Shown here: one piece after another, positions 3,824 to 30,203 of the stretch
Layout of the letters: each line of letters begins with the position of its first letter
Numbering within the stretch: position 1 is the stretch's first letter
Source: Candidatus Undinarchaeales archaeon
GTDB taxonomy: Archaea; SpSt-1190; JASMDC01
Reading direction: 5' to 3'
Length of the DNA: 43,225 nt
NCBI GenBank assembly: GCA_030753015.1
Contig: JASMDC010000030.1
Coordinates: 1 to 43,225, forward strand
Notes under the pieces: generated by a model
The model's input: only the letters and a program-made list of their open reading frames with translations
The model's database searches: none
What the model was told of the DNA's origin: nothing
Position numbers and translations under genes: made by a program

Positions 3824-3845
3824 TGGCTGACACTCGGAATGTAGA

Positions 3846-3858
3846 GATTATAAATGTT
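3846..3858. promoter_or_regulatory. Archaeal TATA box in the divergent rnfC/apbE intergenic region
   Basis: TTATAAAT (minus strand ATTTATAA) about 25 nt upstream of the rnfC ATG; AT island in GC-rich DNA. Confidence 0.65.
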
Positions 3859-3910
3859 ATGCCCTCCCCTCGGACGCCCCGTTAAAGCGGAGCAGAGCGA
3901 GGTCCGGACA

Positions 3911-10964: not shown

Positions 10965-10987
10965 GAAGCCAACGGGCGCCATCGTCG

Positions 10988-11004
10988 GTTTAAAAAAGGT
11001 TTTC
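10988..11004 (-). promoter_or_regulatory. Archaeal BRE/TATA promoter
   Basis: Minus strand GAAAACCTTTTTTAAAC upstream of ATG 10964. Confidence 0.6.
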
Positions 11005-11277
11005 CTACGCGAACCGGAAAACTCGTGTGTTACTACCCTTGAGACACGTCACAAATCAAGAAAAGGAAGGGCATTTCCACCAGAGATAGGGTGGTTCACG
11101 AAAATACGGTCTGGATCGGAATGCCGTGTCACCGCCGAGTAGGAACACAAGCCAGGTCAAGTATCATCACAGAACGGGCCCGCAGGACTCCGCTCCGGGT
11201 TAAGAATTATTTCAATTATCCTTGAATGGTTGGACCATAAGGAGTATGAGAGGCGTTTCAAATACTAGAGAAGGTAT

Positions 11278-13746
11278 CTAGGCAGCCGCCTCGGCGCCCT
11301 CAGGTGTACCCTCGCCTGACGTCTCGCCCTCGTCCTCTTTCTTCGTGATCTGGAAGTGGAAGAGCGATCGCGTCGACTGCCAGCGGATTCCGCTCTGCAT
11401 CCCCTGGTACATGTGGAAGGCCTCGGTCTGGTACTCGATGAAGGGATCCTTCTGTGCGTAAGCCCGGAGGTGGACACCGCGCTTCATCTCGTCCATGCCC
11501 AGAAGGTGATCCTTCCATGACATGTCTGCGGCGTGCAGGAGGACCTGTCGCTCCACCTGCCCGATTATCTCCGCCCCGACCTCAGCCTCCCGCTCGTGGT
11601 AGCGTTTCATGGCCTCGTTCGTGAGGTTCTCGGTCAGCTCGTCGGCGTTCTTGACCGAGCCAACGTTCAGGTCGGCCACGTCGATGCCGAAGACGGCCTG
11701 GCAGTTGTAGGTGAACTGCTTCTCGAGGAACTCGTTCTCCCACTGATGGGGCTTGGGGCCCTCAGCGGTGAAACTCTCAACTACTTCCTCTGCCGTCCGC
11801 TCGATGACGTTGTACACGTCCTGCTTCAGGTCAGGCCGCTCAAGGATTACGTTGCGGTCGTCGTAGAATATCCCTCGCTGTGTGTTCATGACCTCGTCGT
11901 ACTTCAGCAGGTTCTTGCGCATCTCGAAGTGCATGCCCTCGACCTTCACCTGCGCCTGTCGGACGACCTTGTCGATGAGCTTGCCCGATAGCGGCTCGTC
12001 CTTGTGGACCCCCGAGAAGAACTTATCAATCTTCTCCGGCCCGTAGAACCGCAGCAGCTCGTCCTCAGCGGACAGGTAGAACCGACAGGAACCGGGATCC
12101 CCCTGGCGGCCCTCACGTCCCAGGAGCTGGTCGTCGATGCGACGTGAGTCATGACGCTCGGTACCGATCACATGGAGACCTCCGATGTCGGCCACGCCCT
12201 CACCGAGCTTGATATCGGTACCGCGACCGGCCATGTTCGTGGCCACGGTCACAGCACCCTTCTGCCCGGCCTGGGCGATGATATCGGCCTCCTGCTTGTG
12301 GTGCTTGGCATGAAGCACCTGGTGGTCGATGCCACGGGCGATGAGCATATCGCTAAGGTGCTCGGACACATCGATGGAACGGGTGCCCACGAGCACGGGG
12401 CGGCCTGCCTCGTGCTGGGCCACGATGTCGTCGACGATCGCGTCGTACTTCTCCTCCGCGGTGCGGTATATCAGGTCCTGCTGGATGTCGCGCTGCATGG
12501 GCTCGTTCGTGGGGACCTGGACGACGTCCATGCCGTAAAGGGAGATGAACTCGCCCTCCTCGGTCTTTGCGGTCCCGGTCATGCCCGAGACGCGGTCGTA
12601 CATCCTGAAGAAGTTTGGGAACGTGATGGAGGCGTAGGTCTGGGAGGGCTCGCGGACCTTCATGTCGGTCTTACCGGTCGCCAGCATGTCGTTGTTGGCC
12701 TCTTTCGCCTCCAGGGCCTCGTGGAGCCCGGCCTCGTATCGCCTGCCGTGCATGAGGCGCCCGGTGAACTCGTCGACGATGAGCAGCTCGCCGTCGGAGA
12801 CCACGTAGTTCTTGTCCTTGGTGAAGAGAGAGTGTGCGGCGATGCACTGGCGTGCTGAGTGATAGAGGTGCATGGTCCGCTCGTCCGTGGGCGAGTCCAC
12901 TCCGAGGGCCTTGGCCAGCTTGTCATCCCCCCGCTCGGTGAAGAAGGCGAGATGGTCCTTCTCGTGCACCTCGTAGTCGCGCCCGGGCTCGAAGTCGCGG
13001 ACGATACGGTCCATGATGAGGTACTCGCGGGCCGTAGTGCCGGTGCGTCCGGAGATGATAAGAGGCGTCCTGCCCTCGTCGATGAGGATGGAGTCCACCT
13101 CGTCGATGATGGCGTAGTGCATGCCCCGCATGACCCGATCCTCGGGTCGCCGGACCATGTTGTCTTTGAGGTGGTCGAACCCGAACTCGTTGTTCGTCCC
13201 GTAGGTGATGTCCGCCTGGTAGGCGGCCTTGCGGTCCTCGGGGGACTCGTCATGCTGGATGCATCCCACCGACATCCCCATGAACTCATAGATGGGGGCC
13301 ATCTCCTCGGCATCGCGGCCGGCCAGGTAGTCGTTGACGGTGATGACGTGGACGCCCTTGCCCTCAATGGCATGGAGGTAGGCCGGGAGTGTCGCGACCA
13401 GAGTCTTGCCCTCGCCTGTCTGCATCTCGGCGATACGCCCTTCGTGAAGGACCACACCTCCCTTGATCTGGACATCGTAGTGGCGCATCCCGGTAACGCG
13501 GTTGCTTGCCTCGCGCACGGCGGCATAGGCTTCGGGCATGAGGTCGTCCAGGCTCTCGCCGGCAGAATAACGGTCCCGGAACTCGTCGGTTTTTCCCGCA
13601 AGCTCGTCATCGGAGAGGGTAGTCATCTCATCAGCGTAGCTGTTGACCTCCTCGACGATGCCGTCCAGGCGCTGCCGCTCGCGGTGGTTGTACGAGAAGA
13701 AGGACTTCACTCCGTCGTATAATCGATCGAGCAGCCCGTCCTCCAT
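11278..13746 (-). CDS. secA: Protein translocase ATPase SecA (no C-terminal Zn-binding motif)
   Basis: MRHYDVQ, AEMQTGEGKTL (Walker A), VTVNDYLA-like, YGTNNEFGFD, IIDEVDSILIDEGRTPLIISG, GMTGTAKTE, ATNMAGRGTDI, GTERHDSRRIDDQL.GR.GRQGDPG, YAQKDP. Confidence 0.97.
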   Translation of the reverse strand: MEDGLLDRLYDGVKSFFSYNHRERQRLDGIVEEVNSYADEMTTLSDDELAGKTDEFRDRYSAGESLDDLMPEAYAAVREASNRVTGMRHYDVQIKGGVVLHEGRIAEMQTGEGKTLVATLPAYLHAIEGKGVHVITVNDYLAGRDAEEMAPIYEFMGMSVGCIQHDESPEDRKAAYQADITYGTNNEFGFDHLKDNMVRRPEDRVMRGMHYAIIDEVDSILIDEGRTPLIISGRTGTTAREYLIMDRIVRDFEPGRDYEVHEKDHLAFFTERGDDKLAKALGVDSPTDERTMHLYHSARQCIAAHSLFTKDKNYVVSDGELLIVDEFTGRLMHGRRYEAGLHEALEAKEANNDMLATGKTDMKVREPSQTYASITFPNFFRMYDRVSGMTGTAKTEEGEFISLYGMDVVQVPTNEPMQRDIQQDLIYRTAEEKYDAIVDDIVAQHEAGRPVLVGTRSIDVSEHLSDMLIARGIDHQVLHAKHHKQEADIIAQAGQKGAVTVATNMAGRGTDIKLGEGVADIGGLHVIGTERHDSRRIDDQLLGREGRQGDPGSCRFYLSAEDELLRFYGPEKIDKFFSGVHKDEPLSGKLIDKVVRQAQVKVEGMHFEMRKNLLKYDEVMNTQRGIFYDDRNVILERPDLKQDVYNVIERTAEEVVESFTAEGPKPHQWENEFLEKQFTYNCQAVFGIDVADLNVGSVKNADELTENLTNEAMKRYHEREAEVGAEIIGQVERQVLLHAADMSWKDHLLGMDEMKRGVHLRAYAQKDPFIEYQTEAFHMYQGMQSGIRWQSTRSLFHFQITKKEDEGETSGEGTPEGAEAAA

Positions 13747-13770
13747 CAAGTTGGCCTCGGCCCCGTACGG

Positions 13771-13786
13771 CCTTAATAAAGGTTTC
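13771..13786 (-). promoter_or_regulatory. Archaeal BRE/TATA promoter of secA
   Basis: Minus strand GAAACCTTTATTAAGG about 27 nt upstream of the secA ATG; no SD visible. Confidence 0.7.
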
Positions 13787-13821
13787 TCTGCGCGGGACTG
13801 GAAAACGGCATACGTAGGCCC

Positions 13822-15645
13822 TCAGCATGCCTCGATGCGGGTCACGTACTCGTACCCCTTACTGGTGTGCACGGGGATGAGCGGGTACATCTCGACAGGC
13901 ACCTCGGTATCGCCCCGCACACGCACGACCTGGCCACGTGAGCGCACTTTGTACGCGGGCCGGTCGGCCGTATCGGTCGTGGCATGCGCGAGGAGAAGAT
14001 ACATGCCGGCGTCAACCTCGTGGAACTCGTACGTGCCCTCCTCGTCGGCGACCACGGTGACTGTTGAGCCCGGATAGCCATCCAGGGGCACCATGTGAAG
14101 GCGGATGGCACGAGGCGGTACACCGTCCACATAGGTGAGTGTTCGCTCGCCCACCGCTTTCGTACGCTGATCACCGGTGCACGATATCCTGTCTTTGACG
14201 TACACACGGCCATGCACGCGGCCCTTGGTACCCAGTTCGACATCCTTTGTGAGATGGCCTGACACCTCGACACGCTCGATGAGCCGACCGAGTCCGGGCG
14301 GGCGACTTGCCTCCACGATAAGTGTGTGCTCGCCACAGGGCACCTTTTTCCGCTCAAGGCGCCCTCCCTCGAAGGGATGGAGACAGGTGTCCAGCCACGC
14401 TTGACCGTCCACGGGAGCGTTCCCAGGTCCGGTGATGGTGAGCTCAAGATCGCAACCACCGGTCCCGCACAGGTCATCCACGGTCACCGGATGCTCCTGG
14501 CCGAACCGGGCGTAGGGGTCCACGCCTGTGAGGTAGGACTCGAGCACGAAGGCGAACTCCAGCGGTCGTCCCTCGGTCCGGACGCCCATTGCCACCGGTT
14601 TAAGGTCACGTAGGACCATCATCACGTCATACTGGGCGGTGTAGCTCACGTTGTACCGGCTGAGGCAGACTGGTTCATCGGCATCACGTCGGTCGATGAA
14701 CGGGAACGGTACCGGCACGTACTCCACATGCTTCGTGCTCTCCTGCTCGGTACGGGGATTGGCCAGCAGGGTCATGTCGACACGCTCGCGCACCATCTCC
14801 ATGGACCACTCGATATCCGGCTCGTCCTTTGAAGCACTGCGCTGCCGCTGGAGCTCCTTGGCCACCGACAGTTGTGCGTTCTCCACGAAGGGCCGGGCCA
14901 TGTCACGCTTGGTGGCGATGATACGCTGCTTCCGGCACGCCATGGTCTCTCCGATGCCGCCGGGCGGGCTGGGGATACGGTCGTCATTGATCATGCCCGA
15001 GAGGAGATTGCGCTCCATGTACCGCTCCTTCTCGTACATCTCGAGATAGGCCTTTGCCCGGGACCACAGGGTTCGAAGACGCAGTGGGAGGGTGATGGTC
15101 ATATCCTCCACCGACCGTGTCGCCTCCTCGTCCCCCTCGAGGTGATATGTGAGCTCGAGCGTCGCCTCGACTCCCTCTTCCTGCAGCTTCGCTGTGACCC
15201 GTGGTGCGCCGAAGACGACCTGGGCCTTTTCGCCTGCACGGATCGCCTCGAGGCGCGGGGTCAGCCGCCGTGTCGCCTCCTGTGAGAGGAGGCCCTCCAT
15301 GACCTGTACCGTGGGGAAGAGCACCATGCGGCCCTTCTGGAGATAGACGGGGCGCTTGACCACCACAGGACCCGGGAGCGAGTTGGTGGTGTAGCCGCCG
15401 CGCCGTCCCAGCTCATACACGGACTCCTCCACGGAGTCGCGGAGGGCGCTCTCGATGATTTCCGAGAGGTCACGCAGACGGTCCACGGTCGCTCTCGTCT
15501 CCCCCGCTTCGGCCCGGACCGTGCGGTCGGTCCGGCTCCCACGCAGGACGTAGGATACGATCACAAGAACAACGAGGGCGATAGCGATTAGCCCGAAGAG
15601 GCTTACCTGACCACGTCCACGGCCCAACACAATCCGGCCGCGCAT
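13822..15645 (-). CDS. Large prepilin-like protein with a class III signal peptide and C-terminal beta-sandwich domains
   Basis: GRGRG|QVSLFGLIAIALVVLVIV; YELGRRGGY segment reminiscent of DPANN pilin-like proteins; C-terminal ADEEGTYEF..V.AG.Y carboxypeptidase-regulatory-like repeat; TGATG overlap with the upstream gene. Confidence 0.7.
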   Translation of the reverse strand: MRGRIVLGRGRGQVSLFGLIAIALVVLVIVSYVLRGSRTDRTVRAEAGETRATVDRLRDLSEIIESALRDSVEESVYELGRRGGYTTNSLPGPVVVKRPVYLQKGRMVLFPTVQVMEGLLSQEATRRLTPRLEAIRAGEKAQVVFGAPRVTAKLQEEGVEATLELTYHLEGDEEATRSVEDMTITLPLRLRTLWSRAKAYLEMYEKERYMERNLLSGMINDDRIPSPPGGIGETMACRKQRIIATKRDMARPFVENAQLSVAKELQRQRSASKDEPDIEWSMEMVRERVDMTLLANPRTEQESTKHVEYVPVPFPFIDRRDADEPVCLSRYNVSYTAQYDVMMVLRDLKPVAMGVRTEGRPLEFAFVLESYLTGVDPYARFGQEHPVTVDDLCGTGGCDLELTITGPGNAPVDGQAWLDTCLHPFEGGRLERKKVPCGEHTLIVEASRPPGLGRLIERVEVSGHLTKDVELGTKGRVHGRVYVKDRISCTGDQRTKAVGERTLTYVDGVPPRAIRLHMVPLDGYPGSTVTVVADEEGTYEFHEVDAGMYLLLAHATTDTADRPAYKVRSRGQVVRVRGDTEVPVEMYPLIPVHTSKGYEYVTRIEAC

Positions 15646-18470
15646 CAGCACACCACCCCCTCTAGGTTGCGCCAGTTGCCCGGATTGCCGGAGAGCTGGA
15701 TCCGGCTCGTGTCCGATACCTCGTCACCTGTGTTGTCACGGACCGTCACGACCACATCGAGGGGCATGGCATTCTCGGGTGTCGGACAGAGGCGGATGGC
15801 GGAGAGGTGGAGCCGGACACCGACGCTGGTGGGGTAGACGAATGCTACGGTGTCGCTCACGTCATGCGGTCCGACCCTGACTGAGAAGCTGTCCTTGTTG
15901 ATGGTCTCCCCGCCCTCGAGGTCCATCAAGATGTCCATGTCGAACCCGAGCCCCGCTAGGAGCAGGAACAGAGGCCGCTCGCGTGTCCCCGGTTCAACGC
16001 TGAGGATACGTATCGACAGGGGAACGTGCTCGAGGACGTCGAATTGGGCCCGTGCCTGGCCGGTCCGCCCTAGGTGGTTCACCGCGAAGGTCAGATGGTC
16101 GGCGTCCGTACTATCTCCCTGGATGTACACGACCACGGTCCAGGTACCGGTGTGCCGATCGTAGGTGGCCGATGTCACATCGGCGCGCACCGAGCGTTCC
16201 CCGCCGTCCAGGAGCGTGGTCATGGCCGAAACGGGCACATAGGGCACGTCCGCGCCCTCGGTATCGGTTATGCGCATGCCAAGGCGCACCGTGGCCCCGT
16301 GCTCCACCGCTGTCCGTGATACCCGGCGCGGTGCCACCGAGATCACGTCGATGCCGATCTCGCTCTGCTCAAGGGGGTACCAGACCTCGAAGGGCCGGCG
16401 GACGAGGTGCATGTTATCACCGACAGAGAGCATGAGGAACGCATCGTACCGCCCAGGAGCGAGGGTATGGTTGAAGGCCGTGGAGAATGTCCACTCGTTT
16501 AGGCCGCCGTCGTAGGAGATCCCTGGCAGGGGACCGCCCGTACCGCCCAGGAAGCTGGACGCCTCCAGCTCCTCATGGACGCGCTTGTCGTCCACGTGGT
16601 CGCCCATCTTCACAACTCCGGTCCAGGTCAGGGAAACACCCTCGCTCATGGCATCGGTGCGGACATGGATCGGTTTGAACTCCTTGACCTCGAATGTGAA
16701 CTCTGGTTGCTGGCATCCGGCCAGAGTGCACACCTGGCCAGCCGTACAGGGGGATAGTGCCTGGTCCGACGGATCGAGGCATACGCACGTGCCCGAGCAG
16801 ATCTCGCCTACCTCCACGCACGTGAGGGTCTCCAACCCGCGCTTGGCCACACAGGTGCCGCGCGTACGGATGACTGTGAACGGCGATGTCGAGGCCGATG
16901 GGGACGAGCAGGCAGTGGCGCTCCCCGGCATCGGGAGGCAGGTATCCTGGTACTCGCACACGTCCCGTGGCATGCCGTGCTCGTCGAAACAGAGGCAGAG
17001 GGGGAAGGCTGCGGACGTGGGATGGCATGCCATCCGCGGGCCTATGCAGGGTATATTGGTATCGAGCACGGGGAGGGTGCCCCCAAAGCAGAGGTCGGAG
17101 TGCACGGATCCCTGCCGCGGCCGCCAGTCCACGATCTCTACGGTCTTGACGCCCGTCGCCACGATCTCGCCGCCCTGGTATACCTCCATCTCGATCTCGT
17201 ACATCCCTGGATCGAGCTCATCCTCCAGTTCTATGTCGGCAGGCTCGCAGCCACCGGAGGTCGTTCGGGTCACGACGTTGCCGTCGCTGTCGGTGACAGT
17301 GACCTCGCACAGCTCCCCTTCGCCGGCGGGGAACACCGCGAGGTTCTCGCCCGCAGAGTACACGTCCTTGTCCGTCGTAATCTCTACGGTCCCCTCGCCC
17401 GTATCGGCGAAGGTGAACGCCGCAGTACCGGTGCCCGTGAGCTCGCCACGAGTGGCCCGCACCCGTATCATGTAGTCACCCGGGACCAATCCCGCGGTGC
17501 CCAGTCGTACCCTGTCGCAGGTTGTGAGGTCGAGCTCGTCCCACCGGTGCCCCTCTAGGTTGAGCACAGTCACCTCGCATCGGTCGACCTCGCCTTCAGC
17601 AGAGATGTCTACATCGAAGGACGGGCCGGTGACCGTGGCGGTAGCGATGTTCACAGCGACCGACAGCTGGGCGCGGGAGGCCACAAGGGGCGTGCGCGCG
17701 GAGGAGATGCGAGGGATATCGCCCCATGTGTCGATCGCGATCAATGCCAGCTCGGCACCTTCCTCGACCAGGAGCCCCGTCGTCGGGAGCACGAAGGGCT
17801 CACAGTTCGGGGAGACGGCGCTCAGGGCGGGGCGTGTCTCCCCTGGTTGTATGATGGCGATGATGCAGAGGCTCCCCTGGAGGCGCGGGATATTGAACGC
17901 GTCACCAATGACGAGCGAGCGTGCCAGTTCGGCGACCGACGAGGGGACATCCAGCGGTTGGTCCTGTCCCGATACCGTGAAGGTGGATAGAGTGGGCTGA
18001 TCACGCACGTCCTCAACGATCGCCCGATAGGCGGGGTAATGGATCGAGAGCTCGCGTTCCTCGGCGAGCAGCCCGGGCGCGAGGGTGAACTGTCGGGGCC
18101 GGTACTCATGGGAGAGCCGGACACGTACACCCGCTTCGCCCCAGACATCCTCCCATGCAAGCTCCTCCACGCCGAATATTGGATCATCGTTTACTGTAAA
18201 GATGATCCGTCCTGTGGTAATATCACGCCAAGGTTGGCAATCGGCCGCGGGCGCCGCTATGTTACATCGCGTTCGTAGGTCGGCGTCCGTCAGCACTGCA
18301 GCAGCGCTCGGTTGGAGTTCGAAGGTGACGGTCGCGGTCTGCTTATCGAGGGAGGCGAAGTCCACGTCCTCGGTCACGGAGAAGGCAATCAAGCCAAACG
18401 CGGGGGTCATGACGAGCATGAAAGCGAGGAGCAGGGCCGATGAACGGGACCATCGAGCGACCATTTTCAT
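15645..18470 (-). CDS. Secreted Cys-rich multidomain surface protein
   Basis: Signal peptide RWSRSSALLLAFMLVMTPAFG; Ig-like stretches (TTDKDVYSAGE, PGDYMIRV, PGMYEIE); central Cys-rich region; start ATG 18470 overlaps the upstream stop (ATGA). Confidence 0.8.
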   Translation of the reverse strand: MKMVARWSRSSALLLAFMLVMTPAFGLIAFSVTEDVDFASLDKQTATVTFELQPSAAAVLTDADLRTRCNIAAPAADCQPWRDITTGRIIFTVNDDPIFGVEELAWEDVWGEAGVRVRLSHEYRPRQFTLAPGLLAEERELSIHYPAYRAIVEDVRDQPTLSTFTVSGQDQPLDVPSSVAELARSLVIGDAFNIPRLQGSLCIIAIIQPGETRPALSAVSPNCEPFVLPTTGLLVEEGAELALIAIDTWGDIPRISSARTPLVASRAQLSVAVNIATATVTGPSFDVDISAEGEVDRCEVTVLNLEGHRWDELDLTTCDRVRLGTAGLVPGDYMIRVRATRGELTGTGTAAFTFADTGEGTVEITTDKDVYSAGENLAVFPAGEGELCEVTVTDSDGNVVTRTTSGGCEPADIELEDELDPGMYEIEMEVYQGGEIVATGVKTVEIVDWRPRQGSVHSDLCFGGTLPVLDTNIPCIGPRMACHPTSAAFPLCLCFDEHGMPRDVCEYQDTCLPMPGSATACSSPSASTSPFTVIRTRGTCVAKRGLETLTCVEVGEICSGTCVCLDPSDQALSPCTAGQVCTLAGCQQPEFTFEVKEFKPIHVRTDAMSEGVSLTWTGVVKMGDHVDDKRVHEELEASSFLGGTGGPLPGISYDGGLNEWTFSTAFNHTLAPGRYDAFLMLSVGDNMHLVRRPFEVWYPLEQSEIGIDVISVAPRRVSRTAVEHGATVRLGMRITDTEGADVPYVPVSAMTTLLDGGERSVRADVTSATYDRHTGTWTVVVYIQGDSTDADHLTFAVNHLGRTGQARAQFDVLEHVPLSIRILSVEPGTRERPLFLLLAGLGFDMDILMDLEGGETINKDSFSVRVGPHDVSDTVAFVYPTSVGVRLHLSAIRLCPTPENAMPLDVVVTVRDNTGDEVSDTSRIQLSGNPGNWRNLEGVVC

Positions 18471-24320: not shown

Positions 24321-25625
24321 TCACACTTCCTTGAACCTTGCTGAGAAAGAAGCGTCCTCGCCCGAGATATTGGTGACCGCCAGCCAGAGCGTCCCGTCCT
24401 CGTGTATATCGATGTCCGTTGCTCCACCGTTGAGCGTGTCCGCCACCAGAGTAGGTCCCGATGACCCCACCATAGCAGCGCGCAACCGGAGCCCGTCGGA
24501 CGAACCGCTCTCAACCCTCACTGTGCGCCCCGCGGTGACCTGGGCCTTCATGAACGACATCCCTCCGCGCCCGGACACATCGGCATAGCAGGTCAGTCCA
24601 TCGGAGAGCTCGGTCGCCTTCACCTCACCTATGTCTAGCCGCTCGAACGCGTACATCCCCCCCTCGAACGAGGTGTCGTTCACCGCGATGGCCAGGCCCA
24701 GGTCGGCGAACACGGTGTCGAGGTCGAGGGAGGGGTTCAGACCCCCGAGCCTCGCGTCCAGCGAGTCCTTCCCGTGCAGTGGATCGGCCGTGAGGTCCTT
24801 GATGAAGCTGTCACCGAACCTCTCCCAGAGGTAGTCGCCGAAGAGCATGTAGAGGCCGTAGTGCCCCCGACCGATCTTGTCCGGGATAAGAGCGTGGGAG
24901 GGGTCGCGCAACCAGGTATCGACCCAGCGTTCGTCCGCACCGTAGCCGGTGAGCACCATCGCCACCTCGCTCATGGCCTCGTTGAGCCAGTTCTCCTCAT
25001 CCCGATCGTGGCCCCAATGGATGAGGTGCTGAAGCTCGTGGGCCTGTACGGAGAGCATGTAATCGGAGTCGGGAGCGTAATGGAGCGTGTTGATGTGTAG
25101 GGTCTCATGTCGGTTGGACACAGGGACGTCGAGCTGGTCCTCGACCTTGAAGTAGCCGTCGAAGCTGTGCCCGCGGTACCCCTCCATCTCGTACAGGAAG
25201 AGGTAGACCTTCGGATCGTTGTCGAACTCGTCCGGTGGGTCGCCGAACAGGCCCGTGACCTGGTCGTAGAGACCGTGCTCGGGATCGGAAGGTGTCCCTT
25301 CGTCCCAGGCCCTGATTAGGTTGGCCACCGTCCCCTCGTCAACGGAGTGGCCCCAGGCCGCGTCCTCGACGACGACGTACACGTTCCTCCCCTCACCGCG
25401 CACACTGGCCGCGATCTGCTCGTCCCGGGGGGGCATCACCGACAGGTCCCACACCCACCACATGTCGGTTGCGGGGCCGTACGGTCCCGGGACCGTGACA
25501 TCGTGGTCCGCATAGGCCGGAGGGTACTGGCAGAGGGGTCGGTGGGCCGTTGAGTATACCGGGGCTTGGTCCTCGAGCTCAGGAATGTATTCCGCGACCT
25601 CTTCGACGGGACCTGCGTCTTCCAT
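24321..25625 (-). CDS. Zinc metalloprotease (M30/hyicolysin-like gluzincin)
   Basis: FGDPPDEFDNDPKVYL, DGYF, AHELQHLIH, WLNEAMSE. Start ATG 25625 or GTG 25637 (GTGA overlap); no signal peptide visible. Confidence 0.82.
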   Translation of the reverse strand: MEDAGPVEEVAEYIPELEDQAPVYSTAHRPLCQYPPAYADHDVTVPGPYGPATDMWWVWDLSVMPPRDEQIAASVRGEGRNVYVVVEDAAWGHSVDEGTVANLIRAWDEGTPSDPEHGLYDQVTGLFGDPPDEFDNDPKVYLFLYEMEGYRGHSFDGYFKVEDQLDVPVSNRHETLHINTLHYAPDSDYMLSVQAHELQHLIHWGHDRDEENWLNEAMSEVAMVLTGYGADERWVDTWLRDPSHALIPDKIGRGHYGLYMLFGDYLWERFGDSFIKDLTADPLHGKDSLDARLGGLNPSLDLDTVFADLGLAIAVNDTSFEGGMYAFERLDIGEVKATELSDGLTCYADVSGRGGMSFMKAQVTAGRTVRVESGSSDGLRLRAAMVGSSGPTLVADTLNGGATDIDIHEDGTLWLAVTNISGEDASFSARFKEV

Positions 25626-25633
25626 CGGGCCGC

Positions 25634-27181
25634 TCACTCTTTGCCCTGCTGCGACTCCAGGTAGATCTGGAGCCACAGAGGGAGCTCGAAGGCCTCCTCG
25701 ATGGTGGGGTTCCGCTTCTGCATCAGCTCGTCCCACGACGTGTCCTCTGCGAACCCGGTGGCCTCGTACAGCTGCTTGTAATGATCGTACTCCCGCTGCA
25801 CGCTGGGGACGTAGATGTGGAGCCCCGTTGCAGTGCCATGGGACTGGGCGTTGTGCTGCTCGGCAACGACCACCTGTCCGATGGACTTTATCACCTTGTT
25901 GGCAGCATCGCGCACTGCGGGTTCGTACTTCTCGTTGGCCGCGAGCCGCTCGGCCAGGTCACCCAGGTCCACGAGGGGCTCCGGGAAACCGAGCAAAGGA
26001 TTGGTGCCGAAGTGAAGGCTTGCGTCGTTGGCCTTGTTGAACTCCTCCATGGGGACCTTCGATCCGAGCAGAGCATCGGCCAATCCATCCACGGCCTCGG
26101 CCACCTTGGGCATCTTGGCCACCTCGGTGGCAGAGAGTGTCCTGAGGTTCTGCTGGTCGTTCTCGGCCTCCTTGACGATGAGGTAGCTCATCAGCTTGGG
26201 CGAGAGCTCGGGGCGCGGGCCGTCCTTGAAGGCCTTGGAGTACTTCTCCATGACCACAAGGGCACGGTTGCCCATGATGCCCTCGTAGGGCCAGCCCTCG
26301 GCGCCCTCATTCTCCTCGCTGGCCACCAGGAAGTCGGTGACGCTCCGTACTTGGTAGGCGCCCTCGGCCGATGCCATGAGGCACGCGTCGTACCCGAGCA
26401 CGTCGATCTTGACGCCCGTCTTCTGCTGGACCTTGCCCAGAGCCTCCTGGACCTGTGCCCAAGTCATGGAATCGGTACCCGCGGAATCATCGATAATCGA
26501 GCCGGTCCAGCCCATACCGTGGTCGGAGATGACGAGCATGTAGTTCTTCGCAGGGAAGTTCTGGACGCCCCACTCCACGAAGTCCTGGAGGTTCGCAGGA
26601 TCGGCCATGTCGATCTGACCTAGCTCACCCAGAACGGGGGAGTTGAGCTCGCCCTTAGTACCATCCTTCTGGAGGTGATAGCGCCGGGCACCGGTCCACG
26701 CTCGCTTGCCCATGTCGATCTTGCCGTCTGCCTTCTCGCCGCGGTCGAGCTGGACGATCACGTCCGCGTTGTCGGTGGAGCCTATCTTCTCCATATCGTC
26801 CACATCGGCGACCTGATAGGCCTCAAGATTGTTGTCCGCGGCGGAGTAGACGAGGATGGTCCACTCCTTGCCTTCGGCCTGGTCGTCCTGGGCAGCGTAG
26901 TTGAGCGGGATGGACGACGGGAGAGTGACCTGATAGTCACCCATATCGATGACGTTGCCTTGTTTGGCCTGTTCGGTCTCGATGACGTACGCCGGCTGAG
27001 GGTCCGTTCCGGGAGGCGGGAGCGTGTTGGGGAGCATGCCGCCACCGATGCCGACAATAGCACCACCGATGGTGGCTACAAGTCCAAGCCCTGCGGCGGC
27101 GTAGGTCGCCACCTGCTTGGTAGTAAGCCCCTCTTCCTTCTCGTTCGCTTCCGGTTCAGGTTCCTGCTCGACGTACATCAT
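25634..27181 (-). CDS. Clostripain-family (C11) cysteine peptidase with conserved leader, copy 3
   Basis: KEWTILVYSAADNNLE, VQLDR, FPAKNYMLVISDHG.GW (catalytic His), GYDACLM (catalytic Cys), ASEENE..EGWPY. Confidence 0.92.
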   Translation of the reverse strand: MMYVEQEPEPEANEKEEGLTTKQVATYAAAGLGLVATIGGAIVGIGGGMLPNTLPPPGTDPQPAYVIETEQAKQGNVIDMGDYQVTLPSSIPLNYAAQDDQAEGKEWTILVYSAADNNLEAYQVADVDDMEKIGSTDNADVIVQLDRGEKADGKIDMGKRAWTGARRYHLQKDGTKGELNSPVLGELGQIDMADPANLQDFVEWGVQNFPAKNYMLVISDHGMGWTGSIIDDSAGTDSMTWAQVQEALGKVQQKTGVKIDVLGYDACLMASAEGAYQVRSVTDFLVASEENEGAEGWPYEGIMGNRALVVMEKYSKAFKDGPRPELSPKLMSYLIVKEAENDQQNLRTLSATEVAKMPKVAEAVDGLADALLGSKVPMEEFNKANDASLHFGTNPLLGFPEPLVDLGDLAERLAANEKYEPAVRDAANKVIKSIGQVVVAEQHNAQSHGTATGLHIYVPSVQREYDHYKQLYEATGFAEDTSWDELMQKRNPTIEEAFELPLWLQIYLESQQGKE

Positions 27182-27189
27182 TAACCCTC

Positions 27190-28689
27190 CTACTGGCCTC
27201 CCTTATTCTGATTCGCCCGCTCCTGGAGGAACTCGTCCCACTGGGTGTCCTCTGCGAAGTCGAGCTCACCGTACTTATCACCGTCGAAGGAGTCCTGGCC
27301 CTCTCCAGGTGGACCGTTGAAGGGCACGTATATGTGCAGCCCGTGGGCGTTGGGATGGCTGGTCTCGTTGTGCTGCTCGGCGACGACAACCTGGTCGACG
27401 GCCTCGATGACCTTTGCCGCGGCCTCGCGCACATCAGCGCCGTAGGCACCATTGGCAGAGACCTTCTCGGCCAGCTCTACTGCGTCCACGAGCGGCTCCT
27501 CAAACCACCACTGCCTCCCAAAGTGGAAGCTCTCCTCGGCGATCTTGTTGAACTCGCTGATGGGCACCTTGGACCCTCGCAGCGCCTCGGCGAATCCGTC
27601 CATGGCCTCGGCGACCTTGGGCATCTTCTCCACCTCGACGGCAGAGAGAGTAGGGAGGTTCCGCTGGTCGTTCTCGGCCTCCTTGACGATGAGGAAGCTC
27701 ATGAGCTTCGGAGTGAGCTCTGGGCGCTTACCGTCCTTGAAGGCCGTGGAGAACTTCTCCATGACCACCAGGGCCCGGTTGCCCATGATACCCTCGTAGG
27801 GCCAGCCCTCGGCACCCTCCAGCTCCTGGCTCGCCACCAGGAAGTCGGTGACGCTCCGTACCTGGTAGGCGCCCTCGGCCGACGCCATGAGGCAGGCGTC
27901 GTACCCGAGCACGTCGATCTTCACACCGGTGCGCTGCTGGACCTTGCCCAGTGCTTCCTGGACCTCGACCCAGGTCATCTCGTGGTCCCCGGAGGAGTCG
28001 TCCCCGATGGCCCCGGTCCATCCGGCGCCGTGGTCCGAGATGATGAGCATGTAGTTATCGGCGGGGTAGTTGTTCACACCCCACTCGAGGAAGTCCGCGA
28101 GCACGTCGGGATCGGCCATGTTGACCTGCCCGAGCTCGCCCATCATGGGGGAGTTGAGCTTCCCTTTCTCGGCGTCCTTCTGGAGGTGGTAGCGCCGGGC
28201 GCCGGTCCAGGCCCTCTCTCCCGAGTCGACCTGGCCCTCGGCGACCGTGCCGCGGTCGACTTGGATCACGACGTCCACGTACTTGTCAGAACCGACCGTC
28301 TCCATGTCGTCGTTGTCGGCCATGAGATACGGCTCGAGGTTGTTGTCGGCGGCCGAGTAGACGAGGACGGTCCACTCCTTGCCCTGCGTACGGGCGTCCT
28401 GGTCCGCATAGGTCAGGGGGAGGGACGAGGGGAGGGTTACCTTGTAGTCGCCCATGTCGATGACGTTACCCTGAGTGCTCTGTTCGGTCTCGGTCACATA
28501 GGCCGGACGCGGGGTCGTGTCCGGGGGCGGCTGGAACGGCGGAAGGATGTTGATCGCACCGCCGATGGCGGCTACGAGCCCAAGGCCCGCTGCGGTGTAG
28601 GCCGCGACCTGCTTGAACGTAAGCCCGTCCTCTTCTCGTTCCGGCGCTTCATCGTGCTCGTTCTCATTCTCGATATACATCATGATCAC
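27190..28689 (-). CDS. Clostripain-family (C11) cysteine peptidase with conserved leader, copy 2
   Basis: KEWTVLVYSAADNNLE, YPADNYMLIISDHGAGW, GYDACLM, GLHIYVP; GGTGA SD. Confidence 0.92.
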   Translation of the reverse strand: MIMMYIENENEHDEAPEREEDGLTFKQVAAYTAAGLGLVAAIGGAINILPPFQPPPDTTPRPAYVTETEQSTQGNVIDMGDYKVTLPSSLPLTYADQDARTQGKEWTVLVYSAADNNLEPYLMADNDDMETVGSDKYVDVVIQVDRGTVAEGQVDSGERAWTGARRYHLQKDAEKGKLNSPMMGELGQVNMADPDVLADFLEWGVNNYPADNYMLIISDHGAGWTGAIGDDSSGDHEMTWVEVQEALGKVQQRTGVKIDVLGYDACLMASAEGAYQVRSVTDFLVASQELEGAEGWPYEGIMGNRALVVMEKFSTAFKDGKRPELTPKLMSFLIVKEAENDQRNLPTLSAVEVEKMPKVAEAMDGFAEALRGSKVPISEFNKIAEESFHFGRQWWFEEPLVDAVELAEKVSANGAYGADVREAAAKVIEAVDQVVVAEQHNETSHPNAHGLHIYVPFNGPPGEGQDSFDGDKYGELDFAEDTQWDEFLQERANQNKGGQ

Positions 28690-28699
28690 CTGTTGAACA

Positions 28700-30175
28700 T
28701 CACGGACCCGACGGGGTCTGCTTCATCTTCTCTGCCCGATCCTTGAGCCACTCGTCCCACTGGGTGTCCTCGGTGAACTCGAGCTGCTCGTACGCCTCGC
28801 CGTCGTAGGACCCTGCCCACCAGCTCGACGGGACGTAGATGTGCAGCCCGTGGGAGCCGGGATGGGTCGAGTTGTGGTGCTCGGCCACAATCACCTGGTC
28901 CACGGCCTCGATGACCTTGTTGGCGGCGAGCTTCACGTCCTTGCCATACTGGTCGTTTGCGGCGAGGTTCGTGGCCAGGTCGACCACGTCCACCAGGGGC
29001 GAGCCCCAGCCGTAGTCCTGGCTGTTGCCCTCAATGGTATTGAACTCGGTGACAGGGACCTCGGACGCACGCAGGGCGACGGCGAGCCCGTTCACGGCTG
29101 ATGCCACCTTGGGCATCTTCTCGAGCTCTGTTGAGGAGAGCGTGTCGAAAGTGGCGGTATCATTGGCGCCTTCCTTGACGATGAGGTAGGAGTAGAGCTT
29201 GGGCGTGAGCGCGGGGCGGTCGGTGTCCTTGAAGGTGCGGTTGAACTTCTCCATGACGTCCAGTGCCCGCTGGCTGATGATACCCTCGAAGGGCCAGCCC
29301 TCGACGCCCTCCAGCTCCTCGCTGGCCACCAGGAACCCGGCCGCGTCGCGGACCTGATAGGCGACCTCGGTCGATCCCATGAGGCAGGCATCGAATCCGA
29401 GGATGTCGATCTGTGCACCAGTGCGCTCCTTGACCCGCTCGAGCGCCTGGTCGAGCTCAGGCGTGGACATCTGTCCGGCGTGGTGTGAGCTGTCGTCGAT
29501 GAAGCCCTCCCAGCCCGAGCCGTGGTCGGCGATGATGAGCATGTAGTGCTTGGCGGGGAAGTTCTTGACGGTGAACTCCACGAACTCCGCCAGTGTCTCG
29601 GGAGCGGCCATGTCCACCTGTCCGAGCTCCGCTAGCACCGGTGAGTTGTAGTTGACCGGGTCGGTATCCTTCTGGATGTGGTAGCGCCGGGCACCGGTCC
29701 AGTCGCCGCCCTGGGGCGTGTCGGCGGTGTATCCGCGGTCCACCTGGACCACGACGTCCATGTAGTCGTTGGATCCCAGCTTCTCCATGTCGTTGATGTC
29801 GGTGAGCTGGTCGTTCTCGAGGTTGTTGTCGGAGGCGGAGTAGATCATGACGGTCCATTCCTTGGCCTCAGCGGGAACCCGGGCGTCCTCGCCGTAAACG
29901 AGAGGGATGTCCTTGGGCAGAGTGACCTGGTAGTCGCCCATGTCGATGGTGCCGCCCTTGACGGCGTCCTGCACTTCCGTGACATAGGCGGGCCGGTAGG
30001 GTCCAGTCCCCGACGCGGGGGTCGCGTCCATGGGTCCCACGGCCGTGCCGATGGCGCCACCTACGGCGGCTGCGAGGCCGAGGCCCAGTGCGGCGTACAC
30101 GCCCACCTTCTTGAGCGTGAGCCCTTCCTTCTCGTTCTCTATTTCCGTTTCGTACTCCGTCTCCATTATCATCAT
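28700..30175 (-). CDS. Clostripain-family (C11) cysteine peptidase with conserved leader, copy 1
   Basis: KEWTVMIYSASDNNLE, FPAKHYMLIIADHGSGW, GFDACLMG, GLHIYVP. Confidence 0.92.
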   Translation of the reverse strand: MMIMETEYETEIENEKEGLTLKKVGVYAALGLGLAAAVGGAIGTAVGPMDATPASGTGPYRPAYVTEVQDAVKGGTIDMGDYQVTLPKDIPLVYGEDARVPAEAKEWTVMIYSASDNNLENDQLTDINDMEKLGSNDYMDVVVQVDRGYTADTPQGGDWTGARRYHIQKDTDPVNYNSPVLAELGQVDMAAPETLAEFVEFTVKNFPAKHYMLIIADHGSGWEGFIDDSSHHAGQMSTPELDQALERVKERTGAQIDILGFDACLMGSTEVAYQVRDAAGFLVASEELEGVEGWPFEGIISQRALDVMEKFNRTFKDTDRPALTPKLYSYLIVKEGANDTATFDTLSSTELEKMPKVASAVNGLAVALRASEVPVTEFNTIEGNSQDYGWGSPLVDVVDLATNLAANDQYGKDVKLAANKVIEAVDQVIVAEHHNSTHPGSHGLHIYVPSSWWAGSYDGEAYEQLEFTEDTQWDEWLKDRAEKMKQTPSGP

Positions 30176-30203
30176 CTCCCGTCCCTGTCATATGATCCGG
30201 TAA

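What the first reader, a model, noticed from the sequence alone, without database searches (positions are those of the whole stretch)
11278..13786. Complete bacterial-type SecA under an archaeal BRE/TATA promoter
Seen: all SecA ATPase motifs are intact; there is no C-terminal Cys/His zinc (SecB-binding) motif, only an acidic tail; GAAACCTTTATTAAGG lies about 27 nt before the ATG with no SD. Established: SecA is the bacterial/plastid translocation motor and characterised archaea lack it. Inference: a horizontally acquired, domesticated SecA embedded among secreted proteins. It may be an accessory (SecA2-like) motor for the leader-bearing cargo, or may act on a bacterial host's SecYEG.
Basis: partly seen in the sequence, partly recalled or inferred. 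Interest (0 to 1): 0.88.

Follow-up and report, generated by a model that had tools for sequence, protein, structure and literature searches.

The report
Bacterial SecA motor inside an archaeon
A complete, well-conserved copy of SecA, the ATP-driven protein-export motor that textbooks say archaea lack, sits in the chromosome of a large-genome marine archaeon under an archaeal-style promoter, so the unknown motor of archaeal protein export can be tested in this lineage.

Summary
Window 11278-13746 (-) encodes an 822-aa SecA with all four Pfam SecA domains. It keeps 130 of 137 columns that are near-invariant in 170 bacterial SecAs. It has no zinc-finger tail, and GAAACC-TTTATTAA lies 27-34 nt before the ATG.

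The contig is archaeal, not bacterial or chimeric. The 3.85-Mb genome has archaeal ribosomal proteins, one Sec61-type SecY, archaeal SecE, archaeal signal peptidase and four TBPs. No sigma-70, bacterial SecG or bacterial signal peptidase was found. A sister species carries the orthologue (93% identity, dN/dS 0.076) on a 136-kb contig with MCM, Topo VI and TFE.

The four known archaeal copies form one clade inside bacterial SecA, about 50% identical to the nearest bacteria. They share an 11-residue insertion and loss of the C-terminal tail. Composition matches the host genome. Identical contigs occur in RNA libraries of two studies.

The most likely function is an ATP-driven export motor on the archaeal SecYE channel; this is inferred, not shown. 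The link to "leader-bearing cargo" and action on a bacterial host are unsupported.

Separately, very divergent, enlarged SecA homologues lie on archaeal contigs of several small-genome (DPANN-like) archaea. Reviews from 2018 to 2026 still state that archaea have no SecA.

The parts
13771..13786 (-). BRE/TATA-like promoter GAAACC-TTTATTAA-GG; TATA octamer at 13773-13780
   Evidence: Sequence read. Genome-wide positional peak of TTTAWW at -33..-28 with an A-rich upstream stretch. The stretch is 100% conserved between G000 and G001. Four TBP genes and no sigma-70 in the genome.
11278..13746 (-). secA coding sequence, 822 aa plus stop (TAG at 11278-11280)
   Evidence: B. subtilis SecA structure 1M6N matches at E = 7e-230 over residues 16-802. 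dN/dS is 0.076 against the G001 orthologue.
13402..13416 (-). Walker A (G111-E-G-K-T115) of NBD1
   Evidence: Invariant columns in the 43-row alignment; aligned to 1M6N.
13093..13104 (-). Walker B / DEAD-type motif D215-E-V-D218
   Evidence: Invariant columns.
12709..13029 (-). Preprotein cross-linking domain (PPXD), residues 240-346
   Evidence: Pfam SecA_PP_bind, 108 bits.
12664..12696 (-). Clade-specific 11-residue insertion NNDMLATGKTD (residues 351-361) at the PPXD-to-NBD1 return
   Evidence: Present in 4 of 4 archaeal copies and 0 of 170 bacterial SecAs. Seen as a gap against 1M6N.
12007..12501 (-). NBD2 (P-loop_SecA), residues 416-580, with TNMAGRGTD and GR-x-GRQGDPG motifs
   Evidence: Pfam, 230 bits; invariant columns.
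11350..11994 (-). Scaffold, wing and two-helix-finger region (SecA_SW), residues 585-799; finger-tip Tyr772 at 11431-11433
   Evidence: Pfam, 193 bits. Y772 is invariant. The HSD and IRA1 regions are no more diverged than in matched bacterial pairs.
11281..11346 (-). Short acidic C-terminal tail that replaces the linker and zinc finger
   Evidence: zinc motif in 116 of 118 bacterial homologues and 0 of 4 archaeal copies.
10983..11277 (-). Intergenic stretch after secA with T-tracts, followed by a second GGAAAACC-TTTTTTAA promoter-like site (10989-11003) for the next gene. secA therefore looks monocistronic.
   Evidence: Sequence read of the second hundred.
13822..15651 (-). Upstream neighbour: 609-aa protein with an N-terminal hydrophobic segment and no Pfam family. 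Not a conserved operon partner, because G001 has about 7.3 kb inserted between it and secA.
24321..32671 (-). Cluster of exported or anchored hydrolases: three C11 peptidases and one S8 subtilase sharing an N-terminal acidic-TM-PAYVTE...GNVIDMGDYQVTLP module, then a transglutaminase-like protein
   Evidence: Pfam. A leader HMM hits only these four genes plus a weak M14 hit.

Best explanation
This is a genuine SecA gene resident in an archaeal chromosome. A bacterium donated it once, long ago, to the ancestor of a small group of marine archaea with unusually large genomes. Their phylum otherwise contains only 0.6-1.2 Mb genomes, and their SecY most resembles that of Woesearchaeota-type DPANN archaea. 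The donor is unresolved; the nearest bacterial homologues are about 50-53% identical (Bacillota- and Atribacterota-type).

Since then the gene has taken on the host's composition and gained an archaeal BRE/TATA promoter placed for a leaderless or nearly leaderless, monocistronic mRNA. It lost the C-terminal linker and zinc finger, gained an 11-residue insertion where the PPXD returns to NBD1, and has stayed under strong purifying selection in every domain.

The mechanism is inferred, not shown. SecA binds unfolded precursors in its PPXD clamp and docks on the cytosolic loops of the host's only channel, an archaeal SecY/SecE(Sec61-gamma) complex. It then uses ATP hydrolysis to push polypeptides through, after translation or during export of long external domains of signal-anchored proteins. 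SecDF and the archaeal signal peptidase act on the outside. Likely clients are the organism's many exported proteins, several of them very large, including the hydrolases and giant surface proteins around the gene.
For: RESIDENCE IN AN ARCHAEON (shown)
- The window is the whole contig C41 of a 3.85-Mb genome that is 98.9% complete with 5% contamination.
- The genome has L19e, L32e and S4e next to a single SecY with a Sec61 plug, archaeal-type SecE, archaeal signal peptidase and four TBP genes.
- No sigma-70, bacterial SecG or bacterial signal peptidase I was found.
- C41 is collinear with G001:C10:70.7-135 kb at 77-92% nucleotide identity.
- That 136-kb contig also carries MCM, Topo VI A and B, TFE-alpha, RIO1, Trm1, DUF655 and PAC2.
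- G000 contigs C35, C53, C24 and C41 tile along it in order.
- An independent DNA run has error-free contigs that bridge both ends of secA.
- The tetranucleotide profile of C41 ranks 34th of 67 contigs. The secA window lies at the 58th percentile of 735 genome windows. GC3 is 0.85 against a genome median of 0.77.

FUNCTIONAL CONSTRAINT (shown)
- 130 of 137 near-invariant bacterial columns are kept.
- dN/dS is 0.076 against the sister species.
- Per-domain identity to bacteria equals that of bacterial pairs matched for overall identity, with ratios of 0.91-1.31.

SINGLE ACQUISITION
- The four archaeal copies form a clade with SH-aLRT 100 in both trees.
- They share the insertion and the tail loss.

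PROMOTER
-.

CONSISTENT WITH EXPRESSION
- Contigs identical to secA occur in 3 RNA libraries from 2 studies.

EXPORT-RICH SETTING
- By a crude hydrophobicity rule, 9 of 32 ORFs on C41 look exported or anchored, against 260 of 2747 genome-wide. Genome-wide, 38 such candidates are at least 800 aa long.
Against: - No experiment or model shows that a bacterial SecA can dock on an archaeal SecY.
- The cytosolic loops of this SecY look like those of SecA-less relatives. Only 3 of the 9 clade-specific changes lie in those loops (G253A, R261K, G446N).
- The 60-70-residue SecY insertion is in an external loop, not on the SecA-binding face.
- Archaeal membranes differ from the anionic phospholipid bilayers on which bacterial SecA depends (established knowledge, not tested here).
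- RNA-library contigs can derive from contaminating DNA (caveat printed).
- The donor lineage moves between analyses: next to Bacilli with support 82, and next to Planctomycetota/Myxococcota with support 88.
- No rRNA gene was found in the genome. The taxonomic placement therefore rests on protein markers and on the tool's coded groups.
Confidence: 0.62

Rival explanations
1. The contig is bacterial and was binned wrongly, or it is an assembly chimera, so this is an ordinary housekeeping SecA of a bacterium.
For: - The genome is a metagenome bin with 5% estimated contamination.
- Every named close homologue outside the clade is bacterial.
Against: - The orthologue is physically linked to MCM, Topo VI and TFE on one 136-kb contig in the sister species.
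- G000 contigs tile collinearly on that contig.
- Independent contigs bridge both gene ends.
- No sigma-70, no second SecY, no SecG and no bacterial signal peptidase were found in 3.85 Mb.
- Composition is typical of the genome.
- The promoter is of archaeal type and is conserved.
- The best bacterial hit is only about 53% identical.
Confidence: 0.03
2. The gene is archaeal and functional but has been re-purposed. It would act away from the channel, for example as a cytosolic holdase or targeting factor for precursors, as a nucleic-acid helicase, or as a motor for some other membrane partner.
For: - No feature of the archaeal SecY points to adaptation to SecA.
- The C-terminal tail that helps bacterial SecA bind SecB, ribosomes and lipids is gone.
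- An insertion sits next to the clamp.
Against: - The parts that only make sense at a SecY channel are as conserved as in bacteria, or more so. These are the scaffold helix, the two-helix finger with its tip Tyr772, and the PPXD.
- 130 of 137 near-invariant columns are kept.
- Tail-less SecAs are functional translocases in bacteria (SecA2 structures 6SXH and 4UAQ are among the matches; their function is recalled, not tested here).
Confidence: 0.2
3. It is a specialised SecA2-like accessory motor that serves only a dedicated cargo set: the neighbouring 'leader-bearing' peptidases and giant surface proteins. It would not be a general export motor.
For: - The gene lies among exported hydrolases.
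- It has no zinc finger, as in many SecA2 proteins.
- The sister genome bin holds a second copy that is 63% identical.
Against: - G000 has a single SecA and a single SecY, so there is no SecA1 for it to be accessory to.
- The shared leader module is confined to 4 tandem genes.
- secA is monocistronic, and its upstream neighbour is not conserved in position.
- The second copy in G001 lies on an 8-kb contig whose membership of that genome is unproven.
Confidence: 0.12
4. SecA is delivered to, or acts on, the SecYEG of a bacterial host or prey.
For: - The locus also encodes an M23 peptidase domain in a 1887-aa exported protein. M23 enzymes typically cut bacterial peptidoglycan, which hints at dealings with bacteria (the substrate is recalled).
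Against: - SecA has no signal sequence or other export feature.
- It is a large cytosolic ATPase.
- No delivery apparatus is linked to it.
- Strong conservation of all domains fits a housekeeping-type role inside the cell.
Confidence: 0.02

Closest known systems
Bacterial housekeeping SecA (for example Bacillus subtilis SecA, PDB 1M6N/1TF5)
   Same: - Same length class and the same four domains in the same order.
- Aligns over residues 16-802 at E = 7e-230.
- Walker A and B, the NBD2 arginine motifs and the finger-tip Tyr are kept.
   Different: - The host is an archaeon with a Sec61-type SecY/SecE and no SecG.
- The promoter is of archaeal type.
- There is no C-terminal linker or zinc finger.
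- There is an 11-residue insertion after the PPXD.
- It is only about 50% identical to any bacterial SecA.
SecA2 of Gram-positive bacteria (C. difficile SecA2, PDB 6SXH; M. tuberculosis SecA2, PDB 4UAQ)
   Same: - A tail-less SecA paralogue that works with the ordinary SecY (recalled).
- 6SXH matches at E = 2e-217 and 4UAQ at 1e-119.
   Different: - G000 has no SecA1 beside it.
- The protein scores higher against B. subtilis SecA1 (769 bits) than against either SecA2 (728 and 404 bits).
- There is no SecY2 or accessory Asp-type genes. Only SecY was tested.
Accessory Sec system (SecA2/SecY2) of streptococci and staphylococci
   Same: An extra SecA devoted to large surface proteins (recalled).
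   Different: The defining second SecY is absent from G000 and G001.
Archaeal post-translational Sec export with an unknown motor (haloarchaea; SecDF proposed)
   Same: The same kind of channel (archaeal SecYE) and SecDF are present here. The reviews say the motor is unidentified (passages read).
   Different: Here a candidate ATP-driven motor of bacterial origin is encoded. Reviews state that no archaeal SecA homologue exists (passages read).
Divergent SecA-like ORFs of small-genome (Woesearchaeota-type) archaea, found here
   Same: SecA domain set on contigs with archaeal core genes.
   Different: - 966-1758 aa long with large insertions, and only about 29-36% identical to SecAs.
- Branches of 4-6 substitutions per site that do not group with the G000 clade.
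- One of them is annotated 'hypothetical protein'.

Membership tests
SecA (preprotein translocase ATPase) | DEAD-like NBD1 with Walker A and Walker B | tested here: met
   SecA_DEAD scores 405 bits. GEGKT (111-115) and DEVD (215-218) are invariant.
SecA (preprotein translocase ATPase) | PPXD inserted into NBD1 | tested here: met
   SecA_PP_bind scores 108 bits at residues 240-346, inside the SecA_DEAD span 15-400.
SecA (preprotein translocase ATPase) | NBD2 with SecA-type helicase motifs V and VI | tested here: met
   P-loop_SecA scores 230 bits. TNMAGRGTD and GR.GRQGDPG are conserved.
SecA (preprotein translocase ATPase) | Helical scaffold, wing and two-helix finger with an aromatic tip | tested here: met
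   SecA_SW scores 193 bits. Y772 is invariant.
SecA (preprotein translocase ATPase) | C-terminal zinc-binding (SEC-C) motif. It is common but not universal. | tested here: not met
   No PF02810 match. 0 of 4 archaeal copies have the motif, against 116 of 118 close bacterial homologues.
SecA (preprotein translocase ATPase) | ATPase stimulated by precursor and SecYEG; drives translocation | not testable with these tools
   Needs biochemistry.
SecA (preprotein translocase ATPase) | Works with a bacterial-type SecYEG | tested here: not met
   The only SecY has a Sec61 plug and lies in the archaeal ribosomal-protein operon. SecE is of the archaeal/eukaryotic type. No SecG was found.
Accessory Sec system (SecA2/SecY2) | A second, dedicated SecY2 | tested here: not met
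   One SecY in G000 and one in G001.
SecA2-only systems | A housekeeping SecA1 in the same genome | tested here: not met
   One SecA in G000. G001 has two, but the second is on an 8-kb contig of uncertain membership.
Archaeal promoter (BRE/TATA, leaderless mRNA) | A TATA-like octamer about 25-30 nt upstream of the transcription start, preceded by a purine-rich BRE; TBP and TFB present | tested here: inconclusive
   The sequence and its position fit the genome-wide peak. The site is conserved in the sister species, and four TBP genes are present. The transcription start itself was not mapped.

The most novel reading that the evidence does not exclude
SecA-type, ATP-driven protein export exists inside Archaea and has been recruited more than once. 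One case is a canonical SecA, domesticated to run on an archaeal Sec61-type SecYE channel, in a lineage whose genome has grown to 3.6-3.85 Mb within a phylum of 0.6-1.2 Mb genomes. Separately, highly divergent, enlarged SecA derivatives occur in Woesearchaeota-type DPANN archaea. If so, the statement 'archaea have no SecA' is wrong. The compatibility of a bacterial motor with an archaeal/eukaryotic-type channel would then be a natural experiment on how translocon motors are exchanged.
Probability: 0.5. Interest if true: 0.88.

Novelty: new variant of a known kind. Interest (0 to 1): 0.8.

Why it matters
The engine that drives post-translational Sec export in archaea is a long-standing gap. Reviews from 2018, 2022 and 2026 say that no SecA homologue exists or that the motor is unidentified (passages read).

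This is a SecA that is clearly resident, conserved and probably expressed in an archaeon. It offers a concrete candidate and a testable pair: bacterial motor and archaeal channel from one organism. It also shows that a central, multi-contact machine part can cross the domain boundary and be kept for a long time.

It may relate to the expansion of the secretome and of the genome in a lineage whose relatives are tiny symbionts.

Public databases already label one orthologue 'SecA [Methanopyri archaeon]'. I found no paper that discusses it.

Tried and rejected
- COMPLEX PREDICTION. SecY (529 aa, 46-row alignment) was modelled with SecA residues 400-822 (alignment A3). The verdict was 'no answer' (score 0.01, mark 0.32), which is no evidence either way. 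The PPXD and NBD1 had to be left out to fit the size limit.
- rRNA. No archaeal SSU rRNA was found in the genome, so there is no rRNA placement.
- SecE with PF00584 found nothing. That model also misses two of the four archaeal controls. The archaeal model TIGR00327 then found it.
- N-TERMINAL CHARGE. I asked whether the SecA N-terminus had changed charge. Its net charge is -2, like most of the close bacterial homologues (84 of 116), so no claim is made.
- ACCELERATED CHANGE in SecY-contacting domains: none seen.
- NAMING THE GENOME by scanning genome contigs with SecA: all of the best 80 loci kept are bacterial, and the tool leaves out the window's own records.
- RNA COVER. The stretch upstream of secA (13817-15420) has no contig in the three RNA runs, while the DNA run covers it.
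- DONOR. It is unstable between an LG+G4 tree and a mixture-model tree, so I name no donor.
- RFAM. No RNA family match in the window.
- SMALL SLIPS. One search was a script error, fixed. One search used wrong coordinates for one item, which I dropped. One search was an unfinished tree, completed.
Full report
WHAT IS THERE

On the minus strand, 11278-13746 is an open frame of 822 codons beginning ATG (MEDGLL...). An in-frame TTG lies one codon upstream. Pfam finds the four SecA-specific domains in order and at high scores: SecA_DEAD 405 bits (residues 15-400), SecA_PP_bind 108 bits (240-346), P-loop_SecA 230 bits and SecA_SW 193 bits (585-799). The SEC-C zinc motif is not found.

Against solved structures the best match is Bacillus subtilis SecA (1M6N), at E = 7e-230 and aligned over residues 16-802 with a single notable gap.

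I aligned 4 archaeal and 170 bacterial SecAs. The bacterial set was the 118 database hits P0003-P0120 plus 52 of the 80 genome loci. The other 28 loci were dropped because no single open frame of more than 700 aa with GEGKT could be read. In that alignment 137 columns are at least 97% conserved among bacteria, and 130 of these are identical in all four archaeal proteins. The seven exceptions are mostly mild: L156M, R194K, A225G, Q377P, N479H, and two that differ in one copy only. Walker A, Walker B and the tip tyrosine of the two-helix finger (Y772) are invariant.

The tail after residue 800 is 22 residues long, acidic and without Cys or His. Of 118 close bacterial homologues, 116 end in a CxC...C[CH] zinc finger after a median tail of 51 residues.

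THE PROMOTER OBSERVATION

GAAACCTTTATTAAGG occupies 13786-13771. The octamer TTTATTAA ends 27 nt before the A of the ATG and starts at -34.

To test this against chance I took 2796 non-overlapping ORFs of the genome (at least 120 aa, first ATG, contigs of at least 5 kb).
- AT content peaks at -35..-26.
- TTTAWW starts pile up sharply at -33..-28: 186 ORFs, with 17-46 per position, against mostly 0-8 per position between -100 and -50.
- SD-like pentamers peak at -16..-9.
- Upstream of the TATA-like hexamer there is an A-rich stretch (57% A at -5), as expected for an archaeal BRE.

The secA site fits this pattern. It is one to three bases further from the ATG than the main peak, and exactly on the peak if counted from the TTG. 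The whole stretch from about 50 nt upstream of the TATA to the ATG is identical in the sister species, while the end of the upstream gene has diverged.

The genome has four TBP genes and no sigma-70. A 4-mer GAGG at -12..-9 means that 'no SD' is not strictly true, but it would lie upstream of the start predicted from the TATA. The transcription start was not mapped.

Downstream of the stop lie 295 nt with T-tracts and a second, very similar site (GGAAAACC-TTTTTTAA, 10989-11003). That site is 32 nt before the second ATG (10964) of the next gene, so secA looks monocistronic.

IS THE CONTIG ARCHAEAL?

The window is the entire contig C41 of a 3,845,586-base, 117-contig genome that is 98.9% complete with 5.0% contamination.

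Archaeal features found:
- the only SecY in the genome lies on C48 in an operon with L19e, L32e, S4e, L30, S5, L18, L6 and L5, and has a Sec61-type plug;
- archaeal/eukaryotic-type SecE (the model rings only in the four archaeal controls);
- archaeal-type signal peptidase;
- SecD/SecF.

Not found: bacterial SecG, bacterial signal peptidase I and sigma-70. There is therefore no bacterial genome hiding in the bin.

The decisive evidence is linkage.
- A second species of the same genus (G001, 3.6 Mb, 40 contigs) carries the orthologue, 93% identical in protein, at 80.9-83.3 kb of a 136-kb contig.
- C41 is collinear with 70.7-135 kb of that contig at 77-92% nucleotide identity.
- The first 27 kb of the same contig encode MCM, topoisomerase VI A and B, TFE-alpha, RIO1 kinase, Trm1, DUF655 and PAC2.
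- Four G000 contigs (C35, C53, C24, C41) tile along the G001 contig in order. C24 ends 30 bases before the point where C41 begins.
- In a DNA run not flagged as the possible source, error-free contigs span 12111-15348 and 10704-11473, that is, both ends of secA and its flanks.
- C41's tetranucleotide profile is at the median of the 67 contigs of at least 10 kb. The secA gene itself sits at the 58th percentile of 735 equally long genome windows.

WHO IS THE HOST?

The tool's coded taxonomy places G000 and G001 alone in their family. Their phylum has 17 species genomes, and the other 15 are 0.6-1.2 Mb.

The SecY has two close relatives (94% and 66% identity, 529 and 522 aa). After that it is about 50-58% identical to SecYs that sources name 'Candidatus Woesearchaeota archaeon' or 'Nanoarchaeota archaeon'. 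A source labels the MAG that carries a third SecA orthologue 'Methanopyri archaeon'; I could not reconcile that label. No rRNA gene was found.

Near-identical DNA occurs in runs labelled seawater or marine metagenome from 10 studies. Ten of the 20 holder rows are flagged as possible sources.

ORIGIN AND HISTORY OF THE GENE

In a search of 5.8 billion proteins, only two clusters are closer than 53% to the window's SecA.
- P0001 is 93% identical. It is also 92.4% identical to the G001 copy, so it comes from a third organism.
- P0002 is 63% identical and is the same sequence as the copy on G001's 8-kb contig C36.

Everything else is bacterial or unnamed at 53% or less: Clostridia, Peptococcaceae, Caldanaerobius and an Atribacterota-like group.

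The four archaeal sequences form a clade with SH-aLRT 100 on a long stem, both in a 78-row LG+G4 tree and in a 49-row LG+C20 tree. Its neighbours change between the two trees: Bacilli with support 82, then Planctomycetota/Myxococcota with support 88. I therefore name no donor.

All four share two derived characters. One is an 11-residue insertion (NNDMLATGKTD, residues 351-361) just after the PPXD, absent from all 170 bacterial sequences. The other is the loss of the zinc-finger tail. The simplest reading is one acquisition followed by divergence.

The 63% copy may be a paralogue (G001 would then have two SecAs and one SecY), or it may be the orthologue of a sister genus that was binned by mistake. 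That question is open. Its contig shares only about 68%-identical multi-copy families with G000. A SecY of 66% identity exists elsewhere.

IS IT KEPT FOR A FUNCTION?

Between G000 and G001, dN = 0.037 and dS = 0.49, giving dN/dS = 0.076 (Nei-Gojobori, own script).

Per-domain identity to bacteria (overall 49.5%) matches that of 400 bacterial pairs chosen for the same overall identity. The ratios are NBD1 1.04 and 1.00 (its two segments), PPXD 0.91, NBD2 0.97, scaffold helix 0.99, wing 1.31 and finger region 1.23. No domain has been released from constraint, including those that contact the channel in bacteria.

GC3 is 0.85, near the genome's 90th percentile (median 0.77). The protein is somewhat more acidic (18.4% D+E) than bacterial homologues (median 15.9%).

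Contigs identical to parts of secA occur in three metatranscriptome libraries from two studies (X18 and X19; X20). This is consistent with transcription. The tool warns that RNA libraries can contain DNA.

HOW IT MOST LIKELY WORKS

Shown: an intact SecA under purifying selection in a cell whose only translocon is archaeal SecY/SecE, with SecDF and an archaeal signal peptidase.

Inferred: SecA docks on that channel and drives export by ATP hydrolysis.

The setting fits. By a crude hydrophobicity rule, 260 of 2747 ORFs have an N-terminal hydrophobic segment and at most one TM segment. Of these, 38 are at least 800 aa and 12 at least 1500 aa. On C41 the share is 9 of 32.

The neighbours include:
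- an M14 carboxypeptidase, three C11 peptidases, an S8 subtilase and two transglutaminase-like proteins;
- a 951-aa protein without a Pfam family;
- a 1887-aa protein with an M23 peptidase domain and a classical signal peptide.

Against the inference, the SecY cytosolic loops are like those of SecA-less relatives. Of 9 columns that are at least 90% conserved in 43 related SecYs but changed in all three members of the clade, three lie in loops 6/7 and 8/9 (G253A, R261K, G446N). That is suggestive at most. The clade's 60-70-residue SecY insertion, with two cysteines, lies in the external TM7/TM8 loop.

The 'leader' is a real shared N-terminal module: an acidic stretch, a Gly/Ala-rich TM segment, then PAYVTE...GNVIDMGDYQVTLP. 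However, an HMM built from it finds only the four tandem peptidase genes on C41, plus a weak hit to the M14 gene. It looks like a signal anchor with a juxtamembrane domain, not a genome-wide sorting signal, and it gives no co-occurrence test. No second SecY exists. SecA has no export signal.

COMPARISON WITH WHAT IS KNOWN

The protein is a SecA by every sequence criterion tested. It differs from the bacterial housekeeping enzyme in its host, channel type, promoter, missing tail and insertion. It resembles SecA2 proteins only in lacking the tail. It scores higher against B. subtilis SecA1 (769 bits) than against C. difficile SecA2 (728 bits) or M. tuberculosis SecA2 (404 bits).

Passages I read in three reviews state the following:
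- 'there is no SecA homolog in archaea' (PMC13673990, 2026);
[quoted passage not shown] Full-text searches found no paper reporting an archaeal SecA:
- SecA + DPANN: 14 papers, listing only;
- 'archaeal SecA': 1 paper;
- SecA + archaeon + bacterial origin + translocase: 1 paper;
- SecA with four DPANN phylum names: 278 papers held at least two of the five terms, and among the 15 listed only one held SecA.
 In PMC7203096 the term was not in the held first 300,000 characters. Supplementary files were not consulted.

A WIDER PATTERN SEEN IN PASSING

I searched other archaeal genomes with SecA-specific models.
- PF07516: 0 of 2, 0 of 133 and 2 of 401 genomes in three other phyla.
- PF21090: 6 of the same 401 genomes, a large phylum of small genomes. 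One of the six, G505, is an unpublished genome; the count is 5 without it.

The ORFs are 966-1758 aa long and carry all four SecA domains, with long insertions, in G248 and G398. They are about 29-36% identical to ordinary SecAs. They sit on very long branches that do not join the G000 clade (G007 was left out as too divergent, and G005 and G505 were not used).

Two of the contigs were checked and are archaeal.
- G248:C25 has RpoA'', an L7Ae/L30e-family protein, a NusA-like KH protein, S12 and S7 just upstream of the SecA-like gene.
- G398:C1 has L37ae, aRF1, aIF5A and prefoldin 36-46 kb away.

One of these proteins is deposited as 'hypothetical protein [Candidatus Woesearchaeota archaeon]'. 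Two class-mates of G000 (G005, G007) have still more remote SecA_DEAD-like giants of 1184 and 1460 aa. I did not test whether any of these is functional.

VERDICT

The functional speculations are untested or unsupported. The case is unusual enough, and testable enough, to rank high.

Noticed in passing
L108:3415-6591 (G248:C25), L109:1719-6992 (G398:C1), L126:3924-7037 (G275:C7), L127:3427-6342 (G474:C18), L128:3401-6322 (G334:C10): Very divergent, enlarged SecA homologues (966-1758 aa) in small-genome archaeal MAGs. All four SecA Pfam domains are found in the two scanned, G248 and G398. The count is 6 of 401 sampled genomes of one large phylum, and one of the six (G505) is unpublished. Two contigs were checked and carry archaeal core genes. 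One protein is deposited as 'hypothetical protein [Candidatus Woesearchaeota archaeon]'.
   Followed up: partly
L110:2389-5940 (G005:C4) and L111:198-4577 (G007:C5): Two class-mates of the window's genome encode 1184-aa and 1460-aa proteins with only remote SecA_DEAD, PP_bind and P-loop similarity. G007 has TGEGKS as its Walker A.
   Followed up: partly
L003:10677-12266 (G000:C48), SecY residues about 340-410: The SecY of G000, G001 and one 66%-identical relative has a 60-70-residue insertion with two cysteines in the external TM7/TM8 loop. Related SecYs of 462-490 aa have none or a shorter one.
   Followed up: partly
whole genome G000 and G001: These genomes are 3.85 and 3.6 Mb, in a phylum whose other 15 species genomes are 0.6-1.2 Mb. 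Both show about 5% 'contamination', which may reflect real paralogues such as the four TBP genes.
   Followed up: no
window 25634-31622 (-): Four tandem genes (three C11 peptidases and one S8 subtilase) share a roughly 95-residue N-terminal module made of an acidic stretch, a TM segment and a conserved juxtamembrane motif. G001 has additional copies.
   Followed up: partly
window 18467-24130 (-): A 1887-aa exported protein with an M23 peptidase domain (residues 250-355), Thr/Pro-rich linkers and many Cys-rich repeats. M23 enzymes usually cut bacterial peptidoglycan (recalled).
   Followed up: no
window 263-4897: Judged by eye from the translations, an Rnf-type cluster (RnfC-, D-, G- and E/A-like ORFs) followed by an ApbE-like flavin transferase gene. 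No family search was run on them.
   Followed up: no
window 10964-11003 (-): The 572-aa gene after secA probably starts at its second ATG (10964), which lies 32 nt from the start of a GGAAAACC-TTTTTTAA site. RNA-library contigs are densest over this gene, at 9406-10207.
   Followed up: no
G001:C10:83397-90738 against window 13786-13822: G001 has about 7.3 kb between secA and the homologue of the upstream 609-aa gene. In G000 the two are adjacent.
   Followed up: no
L017:15265-15378 (G001:C10): Rfam finds a 114-nt tRNA match that ARAGORN does not find. This would fit an intron-bearing archaeal tRNA.
   Followed up: no
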